A DNA stretch of 64,000 bases from an uncultured bacterium. Lineage in GTDB: Bacteria > Babelota > Babeliae > Babelales > Vermiphilaceae. This document shows positions 24,001 to 27,000 of the stretch, one piece after another; the first letter of the stretch is position 1; every line of letters starts with the position of its first letter. The DNA lies in contig OY969561.1 in NCBI GenBank assembly GCA_963701085.1, forward strand, positions 192,001 through 256,000, written 5' to 3'. Position numbers: made by a program.

Positions 24001-27000
24001 ATGCACTGACCAAACTGATCACTCCTGTGGTATCAGCAAACTGTTTTTCAAAGAGTGCTGATAAGGTATCAGAATGTGTTTGTTCACTGATAATGCGCAG
24101 TCGTGGTGCAATAAAATGCCAATTGAGAAGCATGAAAAAGACCAAACCAACGGCAGTCCATACTTCAAAAAGGCCTTGGCTATATATTGCTGCGGGGAAT
24201 GCAAGAAATAACCAGCTTCCCATATCGCTTGCTTGTGTTGCGATTGCGGTAACGAGGTAATTAACAGAACGGCTTCCGATGATAAAGTCGGAAGCCGTTT
24301 TTACTTTGCGGTAGAAGTAGAGAGCGATGCTCACAAGAACAAAAAAGTAGAGAATAAATGCACTGAACATAACGGTATTCATAAAATTCTCCTCTGAACT
24401 CTTTTTTGCAAAGGTTCACGTTTTGATTACAATCAATCATCTCGATTGTATCAGATGCTGTAAAAATTGTAAAAGAGGGGGGGTTATAGGATTGCGCATG
24501 TGTTAGGATACTTAAACTCTATTTCTTTTTTTTCTTCTTTTTGTATCTGAGCATATGTTTTCGCACCAAGTTCTTTTAAAATAGCTACCTTTTTCAAAGA
24601 ACGGTCGGCTTTTTTATTATCTCCATTCATTCGGTAGAGAAGAACGGTATCCTCACAAATGTCCAGAGCTGTTATCCGAGGTCTAAGCGGTTTGTTGAGC
24701 TGGAACAGTTTATTTTTGATTAACATTTGTGGCAGTTCCTTTGTGTTGTTATTGAGTGCTGCCATAAAGAAGAAAAAAGAATTTTTTTGAATTATTTTTT
24801 TTGTTGTTTTTTTTGCCAAAAGATATGTAAAGCAATTTTGTGCATTGTATCTTAAGGATTCTGCTATTATTACTTCTTGTCCTTGATAAGTAGGTTTTTT
24901 TTGAGCATAAAGTTGTTGAAGATAATCATCATTATCTGACCATGCGGCGATGAGATAAAAAAGAAATGAAAAGTCACGATTATTATTAATAGGTAAGCAT
25001 GTTGCTATCTTATCTGGAACAGTGATTGTATCATAGCAATGTTTCCAGTCTAGATCTTTGTAGAGATCGCAATTGTTAATGAGCAACTGTGCTATGTTAG
25101 CATTATTATTATGAATGGCAATCATGGTGAAAGGTATATCGATATATTCATCTTTATCTGAGTCCATTAAACTTATCCCACTATTGTTTGTTATAGGTAA
25201 TAGCCATTTTACCGCTTCAAAATCATTTTTAGCGGTAAGGATAAATAGAATAGTTGCTTTATCGTTAGATTTAAGGATTCCTTTTTTTTTAACATATGTA
25301 TCATATTCTCTTTCCACACTATCGGGCATGAATTTCCACTGATCGTTTTTCTGAGCCCAATTTTTACACACGAGTCTTACACTGAGATCTTTTTCCGGTA
25401 AGTTTTTGAAGATATGTTGACGTATATCAGGATGTTCTAAATCCTTGTAAGTTATCATGCCAAAGGTGGGGGTATGGGAGAATAGCGTTAAAAATAATAT
25501 TGCTATGGTGAAGCGTGGTGTATGCATAAAAAAGACCTCATTAAGTTTATTTTTTACGTGAGTCTGTAGTTTTTTTAATGCTTCTATTACTTTTCTACAA
25601 TTACAATTATCTTTTATGATTCTACCAGATGTTATAAAAATTGTAAAAGAGGGGGGCTGAAGTTTTAGAGAATGGTACACCATGAGGAATAGTCATTGTG
25701 CATGTTATTATTCGTAGGATGATGATCAATCATTTTATTATGTCGTATTAGTTCCATAATCATTGTTCGGTTATGTTCCTTAGCAAGGTTAAAGAACTTG
25801 CCGCCATAGTAGTATATTATGTTTTTTATTTGATCATTTTTTAAGAAAGTTTTAAAACAATTTAGTGCATTATGGGCTATAGACATTATTATTAATCGTG
25901 TTGTTCCATCGGTATTTGGCATATTTTGCAAACAAAGAAGTTGTTTAAGCTCATGAGAGTTATCTGTCCAAATGGTTAAAAAATAGGCTAAGATTGAAAA
26001 ATCATGTGGGTGGGTTTGGTCGAAATATTTTTGTAGATGATTTGGTAGTGTTATATTCTTGTAATATGTCTTCCAATTATTGTCTGGATAATTTTTCTTG
26101 TCTGTTTCAATTAAAAAACGAGCAACTTCAGGATTTTTATTATGTATGGCAAACATAACGGCATGTATATTATTATCGATCTCATCGATTGTAATATCGA
26201 TATCACTATGGGTTTTAGTATTATTTTTTATCCATTGTACGCTTGCCAAATCATTCATTGATGTAAAATCGAATAAAATATAGGTTTTATCCCAAGAAGT
26301 TAAATGTCTTCCATTTTTCGTATATCTATTATGTTCTTTTTCTATAACGTCAGGCATAAATTTCCAAATATTTCCTTTGCAGGCCCAGTCTTTGCATACC
26401 AATCTAAAATCGTCCTGGTCTTCTTTTGATAAATGTTCGTAAATATTTTGGCGTATATCAGGATCTGCTAAGTTCTTGTAAGTTATCATGCCAAAAATAG
26501 ATAGGTGAGAGAATAATGCCAAACATGATACTGCCATGGAGAAACGTGATGTGTTCATAAAAATCTCATAAAGTTTAGCGTGTTGGGATGTCTAAAAATT
26601 GATAATTATGTTTTGTGATAGTGAGAAACTTTTTAATGCCATCAAAAGGAATAGCAAGCGTTGCAGTATTGACTAATGGATGGCATTGCAATGTTTTATC
26701 TTTAAGATTGATATCAAAAATAACCGTCACTGCATGAGCTGTATCATTAATAAGACCAAGCACGGTGACTGATCCTGGTGTAACTCCAAGATATTTTGTA
26801 AGCCGTTCTGGTGATGCAAAACTGAGATTTGATACATCCAGGATACATTTTAATTGTTTGAGATCTACTTGTTTTTCTTTGCCAACAACCACGAGGAAAT
26901 GTTTGTCTGTTTTTTTGTCATATAAAAAAAGATTTTTTATCGAGGTGCCAGGCATTTTGGGGCACACTATGTCAGCTTGATTGCAGGTAAATGCTGCCGG

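What a model noticed while it worked through the whole genome (the two positions that open the first line are those of the whole stretch)
24484..26537. About 35 secreted proteins carry divergent F-box motifs, N-terminal or poxvirus-like C-terminal
23 proteins (e.g. 216484, 217665, 290753, 460091, 457572, 201398, 275831, 743955-751759, 754316, 989301, 195132-197928, 1172672-1177535) have a two-helix F-box close behind the signal peptide, ahead of ankyrin or unknown domains. 14 more (e.g. 580431, 618153-619751, 468937, 984896) have the first F-box helix there, and about 9 WD40, ankyrin or macrodomain proteins have a similar LPxEI helix at the C-terminus, as poxvirus PRANC proteins do. The genome thus probably holds a large set of SCF-hijacking adaptors that standard annotation misses.
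Evidence so far: In-genome HMM against reversed-sequence decoys: 24 hits in 23 proteins at 15-56 bits, best decoy 7; helix-1 sets in calls 88 and 91. Independent test: a profile of 22 motifs searched against all PDB sequences returns 14 hits, 11 of them F-box proteins at the F-box position (FBXO4 E 0.003, Legionella AnkB, FBH1, TIR1, FBXL3/5/17; call 107). Of 16 windows scanned with Pfam, 3 pass the F-box cut-off and 3 more hit weakly.
(Added by a program. Inside this text positions count along the whole contig: contig position 192,001 is position 1 of the stretch shown here. "Call 12" and the like, gene names such as g00115 and contig names such as C1 are that model's own, and its searches are not shown. 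The text may have been shortened before it was handed on; [...] marks where a part breaks off. The agent that wrote the report below was given it as the finding of a first reader that could run no searches.)

Follow-up and report, generated by a model that had tools for sequence, protein, structure and literature searches.

The report
Hidden secreted F-box effectors in Babelota
A small-genome bacterial parasite of protists encodes about 20-30 exported proteins with a disguised eukaryote-type F-box, some also ending in a host lipid-anchor signal, so it probably redirects its host's protein-destruction machinery on a larger scale than standard annotation shows.

Summary
The genome is Babeliales (Babelota/Dependentiae). 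The N-terminal claim holds. Pfam passes only 3 F-boxes, but a profile built only from other Babelota genomes scores 29 signal-peptide proteins at 8 bits or more just behind the signal peptide. Controls: 1/501 and 0/513 internal windows, 1/4850 shuffles, 2/485 reversed. About 21-25 of these are two-helix F-boxes; 7-8 are helix-1-only and weaker.

New here: both window proteins read signal peptide, F-box, ankyrin-like body, CaaX (CAIL, CTIL), the domain order of Legionella AnkB. CaaX is kept in 7 of 9 family members and enriched in the F-box class (4/25 vs 2/397). That points to delivery into the host cytosol. The architecture is phylum-wide: 80 of 214 genomes hit, some with 20-33 matches.

The C-terminal 'PRANC-like' set is a real conserved tail module, but its F-box identity is unconfirmed (no Pfam or PDB match; profile probability 9-60%). 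Skp1 binding was not tested. F-box effector expansions are known in Chlamydiae and Legionella; in the papers read, Babelota had only isolated F-boxes.

The parts
24484..25527 (-). Secreted F-box/ankyrin-like/CaaX protein (contig 216484); likely start at 25527, longest ORF runs to 25683
25351..25431 (-). F-box motif of the 24484 protein (Pfam positions 6-33, 20.4 bits; 24.2 bits with the relatives-only profile)
25063..25269 (-). Ankyrin repeats (Ank_2 31.5 bits, above cut-off)
24487..24498 (-). C-terminal CaaX motif CAIL (geranylgeranylation type by the recalled rule X=L)
25665..26558 (-). Paralogous secreted F-box/ankyrin-like/CaaX protein (contig 217665), 38% identical to its neighbour
26490..26558 (-). 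Sec-type signal peptide (heuristic), followed by an invariant Met at the predicted +1 position
26385..26462 (-). Divergent F-box lacking the canonical Leu-Pro; invariant RLVxKxxA in the family
25668..25679 (-). C-terminal CaaX motif CTIL
9398..10285 (-). Signal peptide + F-box protein (contig 201398), at the Pfam cut-off; match at 9938-10051
3081..6845 (+). Four tandem secreted paralogues with a weak F-box-like segment (0.4, 12.3, 8.8, 6.7 bits)
47469..48296 (+). Secreted macrodomain protein carrying the C-terminal three-helix tail module (residues 242-275, window 48192-48293); F-box identity unconfirmed

Best explanation
These are substrate-adaptor effectors for the host SCF ubiquitin ligase.

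Shown: a signal peptide; an F-box-type motif 5-90 residues behind it, often with an insert between helix 1 and helix 2; a variable cargo domain (mostly ankyrin, also WD40-like or unknown); and in a subset, including both window proteins, a terminal CaaX.

Inferred: Sec export to the periplasm, then release through the secretin-containing (type II-like) system or membrane vesicles into the protist cytosol. There the F-box binds host Skp1-Cul1 and the cargo domain recruits host proteins for ubiquitination. In CaaX members, host prenyltransferases anchor the adaptor to a membrane, probably the one around the bacterium, as for Legionella AnkB.

Likelihood by class: about 0.85 that the core of roughly 10 strong members bind Skp1; 0.7 for the weaker two-helix members; 0.55 for the helix-1-only family; 0.35 for the C-terminal tails.
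For: Babeliales placement. Pfam F-box over the cut-off at 3 places here and in 0 of 14 control genomes, and in 31 of 151 Babelota genomes. 36 of 48 Pfam-passing motifs of relatives and 37 of 50 further hits lie within 130 aa of a signal-peptide start. Relatives-only profile: 27/485 N-terminal windows at 8 bits or more, plus 2 proteins whose signal peptide my heuristic missed, vs 1/501, 0/513, 1/4850 and 2/485 in controls. hhalign 97.0% for the window family and 96.6% for 23 sub-cut-off motifs; reversed controls for the four families so tested were at most 1.1%. PDB search with the 23 sub-cut-off motifs: 6 of 11 hits are F-box proteins, top hit AnkB E 0.013. Pfam F-box in 5 of 8 window-family segments. 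Atlas top three named clusters are F-box, 0.80-0.87, lead level only. Cys at -4 in 7/35 vs 5/384 (p 9e-6); strict CaaX 4/25 vs 2/397 (p 1.3e-4); 7 of 9 window-family members; 4 of 41 complete F-box proteins of relatives; 3/50 vs 0/28 neighbours. Two secretins; no VirB4 or SctV/FlhA family hit. No Skp1 C-terminal domain in 261 Babelota genomes, though no control rang either.
Against: Single-protein scores are weak and only 3 pass Pfam. The window-family profile alone found no F-box protein among 18 PDB hits. AlphaFold gives the F-box segment of 217665 pLDDT about 40-55. The window proteins lack the canonical Leu-Pro. Two non-secreted proteins (942948, 844623) also score 13-14 bits, so false positives exist at that level. 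The strict CaaX pattern was chosen after seeing the data, rests on three independent families here, and is absent from 2 of 9 window-family members. CaaX is not enriched among signal-peptide proteins overall (7/419 vs 4/598, p 0.22). Signal peptides were called by a home-made heuristic. No route from periplasm to host cytosol is shown.
Confidence: 0.72

Rival explanations
1. The motifs are true F-box derivatives, but many act as Skp1/SCF decoys that sequester the ligase, or are decaying copies from birth-and-death drift that no longer bind.
For: Graded loss of the motif within paralogue clusters (0.4-12.3 bits in 195081-197862). A frame break at the start of 618153 and a stop in the 780336/780870 macrodomain gene. 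Copy number from 0 to 33 across genomes. Drift was argued for chlamydial F-boxes (PMC4209131, passages).
Against: F-box columns are among the best conserved in the window family at 22-42% overall identity, with CaaX retained. Cargo domains are of substrate-receptor type.
Confidence: 0.14
2. The segment is not an F-box but an amphipathic pro-region or export/folding element shared by this genome's secreted proteins.
For: It sits right behind the signal peptide in the Met(+1) class (24 of 25). Scores are low. No PDB F-box hit for the window family alone.
Against: Pfam cut-off passed in 31 of 151 genomes. The relatives' profile ranks F-box proteins in its first 48 of 52 PDB hits. Only about 7% of secreted proteins carry it, it also occurs deep inside some proteins, and it co-occurs with CaaX.
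Confidence: 0.07
3. The proteins stay in the periplasm or vacuole lumen and never meet host Skp1.
For: Only a Sec signal and secretins were found; no injection-system marker family. Sec plus type II secretion crosses bacterial membranes only (established knowledge).
Against: CaaX and F-box both need cytosolic eukaryotic enzymes (established knowledge). Babela is described as filling the amoebal cytoplasm (PMC4378268, passages), and vesicles are seen in Chromulinavorax (PMC6561590, passages).
Confidence: 0.07

Closest known systems
Legionella pneumophila AnkB (F-box, ankyrins, CaaX; PMC2916131, abstract and outline)
   Same: Same domain order as the two window proteins; protist host; top PDB hit of the sub-cut-off motif profile.
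   Different: AnkB is injected by Dot/Icm. These carry cleavable Sec-type signal peptides, have a longer divergent ankyrin-like body, lack the Leu-Pro, and mostly end in X=L or Q. Homology outside the F-box was not tested.
Parachlamydiaceae NEX1/NEX2 F-box expansions and Amoebophilus F-box proteins (PMC4209131, passages)
   Same: Amoeba-associated bacteria with many N-terminal F-box + repeat proteins and birth-and-death evolution (Neochlamydia 129 and 158; Amoebophilus 15).
   Different: Those are Pfam-detectable, LRR/TPR-based and type III secreted. Here the set is smaller, mostly below the Pfam cut-off, ankyrin-based and Sec-signalled.
Babela massiliensis / TM6 F-box proteins (PMC4378268, PMC4776705, passages)
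   Same: Same phylum; F-box and ubiquitin-system proteins and secreted ankyrins were noted.
   Different: One F-box protein was reported in Babela. No expansion, signal-peptide + F-box architecture or CaaX appeared in the passages read.
Poxvirus/Orientia ANK-PRANC proteins (PMC4353913, passages)
   Same: C-terminal truncated helix-1-like motif; cowpox CP77 binds Skp1 with helix 1 alone, so a short tail could work.
   Different: PF09372 does not hit the tails. They follow macrodomains or WD40 more often than ankyrins, end right after the LPxE helix, and are preceded by a different conserved helix.

Membership tests
F-box proteins (PF00646 clan) | F-box motif at the curated cut-off | tested here: inconclusive
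   Met for 290753, 201398 and marginally 216484; 131400 at 18.9 and 217665 at 14.1 fall below 20.5. Most members pass only profile-level tests.
F-box proteins (PF00646 clan) | Helix 1 plus helix 2-3 pattern (L..vcK.w) in order | tested here: met
   Window family and 23 sub-cut-off motifs align over 32-40 columns at 97%; the helix-1-only family covers only 21 columns.
F-box proteins (PF00646 clan) | Substrate-binding domain C-terminal to the F-box | tested here: met
   Ankyrin Pfam hits in most two-helix members; ankyrin-like fold for 217665, weak E-values.
F-box proteins (PF00646 clan) | Binds Skp1 and assembles an SCF ligase | not testable with these tools
   No structural or experimental test was obtained.
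AnkB-type effectors | F-box + ankyrin + terminal CaaX | tested here: met
AnkB-type effectors | Dot/Icm translocation, no signal peptide | tested here: not met
   Signal peptides are present. VirB4 and SctV families were not found; Dot/Icm-specific families were not searched.
PRANC (PF09372) | C-terminal PRANC domain after ankyrin repeats | tested here: not met
   Only one sub-cut-off hit (18.6 vs 25.8 bits), in the N-terminal half of WD40 protein 1183901; 0 of 20 tail segments hit F-box or PRANC.
SOCS/VHL-box (Elongin C-binding) proteins | BC-box plus cullin box at the C-terminus | tested here: inconclusive
   No SOCS_box match in these proteins. The AlphaFold three-helix tail resembles the recalled SOCS-box layout, but the tail was not fold-searched alone.

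The most novel reading that the evidence does not exclude
Babelota run a phylum-wide cullin-ligase hijacking toolkit exported by plain Sec signal peptides: cryptic N-terminal F-boxes, host-prenylated AnkB-like adaptors arisen independently, secreted Skp1/POZ-like adaptors, and a new mobile C-terminal 'helix0 + helix1' module that binds Skp1 or Elongin C and couples macrodomains (ADP-ribose readers), WD40s and ankyrins to ubiquitination. This would imply an uncharacterised route from the periplasm to the host cytosol.
Probability: 0.3. Interest if true: 0.8.

Novelty: new variant of a known kind. Interest (0 to 1): 0.55.

Why it matters
Babelota devote up to 44% of their genes to signal-peptide proteins of mostly unknown function (PMC6561590). 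A cryptic F-box gives a testable function to about 7% of this genome's secreted proteins and to similar sets across the phylum. The F-box/CaaX coupling is sequence evidence that Sec-signalled proteins reach the host cytosol in bacteria without a detected injection system, which makes their delivery route a concrete question. It also suggests a convergent AnkB-like design in an unrelated phylum.

Tried and rejected
Complex prediction of a protist Skp1 with the C-terminal tail protein returned no model. That is no evidence either way.

PDB profile searches found no F-box protein with the window family alone, the macrodomain tail or the helix-1-only family. Pfam found no F-box, PRANC or SOCS in the tail (0/20) or the helix-1-only family (0/12). 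The Atlas search with the tail scored under 0.8, all hypothetical.

BTB and SOCS_box searches of the genome gave nothing relevant. The Skp1 C-terminal domain was not found here or in 261 Babelota genomes, with no positive control. A homologue search with the Skp1_POZ-like region of 642052 found only itself. Foldseek with the 217665 model gave only weak ankyrin hits, none at E 0.001 or better. The fold search of the macrodomain model did not test the tail. The phage search with SerRS was uninformative.

Genome-wide CaaX enrichment among all signal-peptide proteins was rejected (p 0.22).

Rows dropped: the 7 G177 hits (no signal peptide, virus-like by my reading) and hits under 16 bits were left out of the second profile. 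7 of 48 training proteins were cut by locus ends and left out of the CaaX count.

Paper searches for a prior description found none describing a Babelota F-box expansion or CaaX effectors. Subscription papers are not covered, and supplement file 1 of PMC4776705, which may hold domain counts (Table S6), could not be searched.

Full report
Setting. The window lies in a 1.199-Mb single-contig genome, 92.6% complete. Its seryl-tRNA synthetase is 87% identical to that of a Candidatus Babeliales MAG, so this is Babelota (Dependentiae/TM6), obligate intracellular parasites of protists. I called 1,217 ORFs. A home-made heuristic marked 419 of the 1,083 ORFs of 100 aa or more as soluble signal-peptide (SP) proteins.

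The two window proteins. ORFs 24484-25527(-) and 25665-26558(-) are tandem paralogues, 38% identical. Each has an SP-like N-terminus, Met at the predicted +1, an F-box-like segment and an ankyrin-like body (Ank_2 31.5 and 24.1 bits). The AlphaFold model of the second has pLDDT 75, with weak Foldseek hits to ankyrin proteins. Relatives occur in 4 of 10 congeneric genomes and 0 of 69 other genomes of the family, plus two database proteins. In 9 aligned members at 22-71% identity, RLVxKxxA is invariant, and two members have the canonical LP-x-E helix start. Pfam F-box matches 5 of 8 family segments (best E 1.4e-4) and only F-box-clan families match. hhalign to Pfam-verified Babelota F-boxes gives 97%. 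Against this, the family profile found no F-box protein in the PDB, and the segment is poorly modelled on its own.

Independent genome-wide test. Pfam F-box passes at 3 places in this genome and in none of 14 control genomes. To avoid training on this genome I used F-boxes from others. Pfam hits 42 of 151 Babelota genomes, 31 over the cut-off, and 36 of 48 such motifs lie within 130 aa of an SP start. A profile of 86 such motifs scored 27 of 485 N-terminal windows of SP proteins at 8 bits or more. Controls were 1/501 internal windows of the same proteins, 0/513 internal windows of others, 1/4850 shuffles and 2/485 reversed windows. Four of 598 non-SP N-termini also scored; two are SP proteins the heuristic missed (743955, 754316) and two look false. 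This gives 29 proteins: 21 two-helix (25 at 6 bits or more) and 8 helix-1-only. The members fall into about a dozen paralogue groups, so they are not 29 independent events. A profile of 23 sub-cut-off motifs returns 6 F-box proteins among 11 PDB hits, AnkB first. Many members have an insert between helix 1 and helix 2, which probably explains why Pfam misses them; such inserts are accepted for Dictyostelium F-boxes (PMC9485057, passages).

Phylum-wide. The relatives' profile hits 80 of 214 genomes, including training genomes, and 9 of 9 other genomes of this genus. Among 50 further hits from 40 loci that I picked from the listed best matches, 37 sit behind an SP; 7 from one genome (G177) have none. 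This genome is therefore typical, not extreme.

CaaX. Both window proteins end in CaaX (CAIL, CTIL). Seven of 9 family members end in C-x-x-x, as does a partial tenth. Cys at -4 occurs in 7 of 35 F-box-class proteins vs 5 of 384 other SP proteins, and only position -4 stands out (p 9e-6). A stricter, post-hoc pattern gives 4/25 vs 2/397 (p 1.3e-4; three independent families). It is also seen in 4 of 41 complete F-box proteins of relatives and in 3/50 vs 0/28 neighbours. CaaX is not enriched in SP proteins overall. F-box + ankyrin + CaaX is the anatomy of Legionella AnkB, which host farnesylation anchors to the vacuole membrane (PMC2916131, abstract). Prenylation is a eukaryotic cytosolic process (established knowledge), so this is the best evidence here for cytosolic delivery.

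Weaker classes. The helix-1-only family (580371, 581410, 618153, 618926, 619751, 316932, 1027435) aligns to the F-box profile over 21 columns at 94.6% but has no Pfam or PDB support. 468937 and 984896 do not pass.

The C-terminal motif is real. In macrodomain proteins it is an optional tail of about 35 residues, present in 5 genes here, including window 47469-48296, and absent from paralogues such as 45773-46633. AlphaFold models it as three helices after the macrodomain. It recurs on unrelated bodies, twice in tandem after ankyrins in one database protein. Its LPxE/D helix resembles F-box helix 1: 60% over 16 columns, ranking first of 19 paralogue-family C-termini, while WD40 tails score only 9-14%. 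An LPxE..I pattern is in 12/330 SP C-termini vs 9/822 internal windows (p 0.006) and 6/407 non-SP C-termini (p 0.09). But PRANC, F-box and SOCS models miss it. Helix 1 alone suffices for cowpox CP77 (PMC4353913, passages), so Skp1 binding is possible; an Elongin C-binding role is a recalled alternative. It should not be called PRANC.

Mechanism. The genome has two secretins and no VirB4 or SctV family hit, in line with type II secretion being the only system reported in Babela (PMC4378268, passages). Most likely: Sec export, release by the secretin system or vesicles, binding of host Skp1-Cul1 by the F-box, substrate capture by the cargo domain, and prenyl anchoring for CaaX members. Motifs and their enrichment are shown; export route, Skp1 binding and substrates are inferred.

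Novelty. F-box effector arsenals are known in amoeba-associated bacteria (PMC4209131, passages). For Babelota, the papers read mention one F-box protein in Babela and F-box domains generally (PMC4776705, section 7 and one supplement file). PMC6561590 has the term only in a reference and PMC12172432 not at all. Searches found no description of the expansion, the SP + F-box architecture or CaaX in this phylum. The scan's own index had no matching note. Verdict: a new variant of a known kind; N-terminal class confirmed, C-terminal class open; interest 0.55.

Noticed in passing
contig 642052-642813(+) (L122) and 264244-265941(+) (L123): Proteins with a Skp1_POZ-like N-terminal domain (18.1 and 15.0 bits, below cut-off; best PDB hit for 642052 is Dictyostelium Skp1a, E 0.25) followed by WD40. 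Possible cullin-binding adaptors that bypass Skp1.
   Followed up: partly
genome-wide signal-peptide proteins: A small residue followed by Met near the predicted cleavage site in 24/25 F-box-class, 184/397 other secreted and 88/598 non-secreted proteins. A mature N-terminal Met could mimic host-made proteins and avoid N-degron turnover (inference).
   Followed up: partly
contig 580371-582240, 618153-620503, 316932, 1027435: The helix-1-only family also shares a conserved C-terminal motif of the form KT..Y..x..IC.NL, of unknown role.
   Followed up: no
contig about 618110-618208 and 780336-781313: Frame break near the start of 618153, and a stop inside a macrodomain paralogue: pseudogenes or assembly errors.
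   Followed up: no
window 45773-48296: Three tandem secreted ORFs; the first and third are macrodomain paralogues, and only the third carries the C-terminal tail. At least 8 related genes lie elsewhere and here in the genome.
   Followed up: partly
contig 321879-322415(-) and 789900-790844(+): Two more secreted proteins end in strict CaaX (CIIS, CIIL); the second is a WD40 protein with a weak helix-1-like segment (4.6 bits).
   Followed up: partly
G177 (L253-L258): 33 F-box matches; the 7 examined lack signal peptides and start at the F-box, suggesting giant-virus-like DNA in that bin.
   Followed up: no
window 22269-22984: Nucleotidyltransferase + HEPN-like gene pair (MNT-HEPN toxin-antitoxin type, by recalled motif) next to the F-box genes.
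   Followed up: no
window 57304-60369(-) and 30653-37306(-): A 1,021-aa collagen-repeat protein and a 2,217-aa secreted TPR-like protein.
   Followed up: no
window 27060-29327(-): Three tandem secreted paralogues with no Pfam match, just upstream of the F-box pair.
   Followed up: no
L146, L147: Pandoravirus genomes carry an amoeba-like Skp1 gene with in-frame introns.
   Followed up: no
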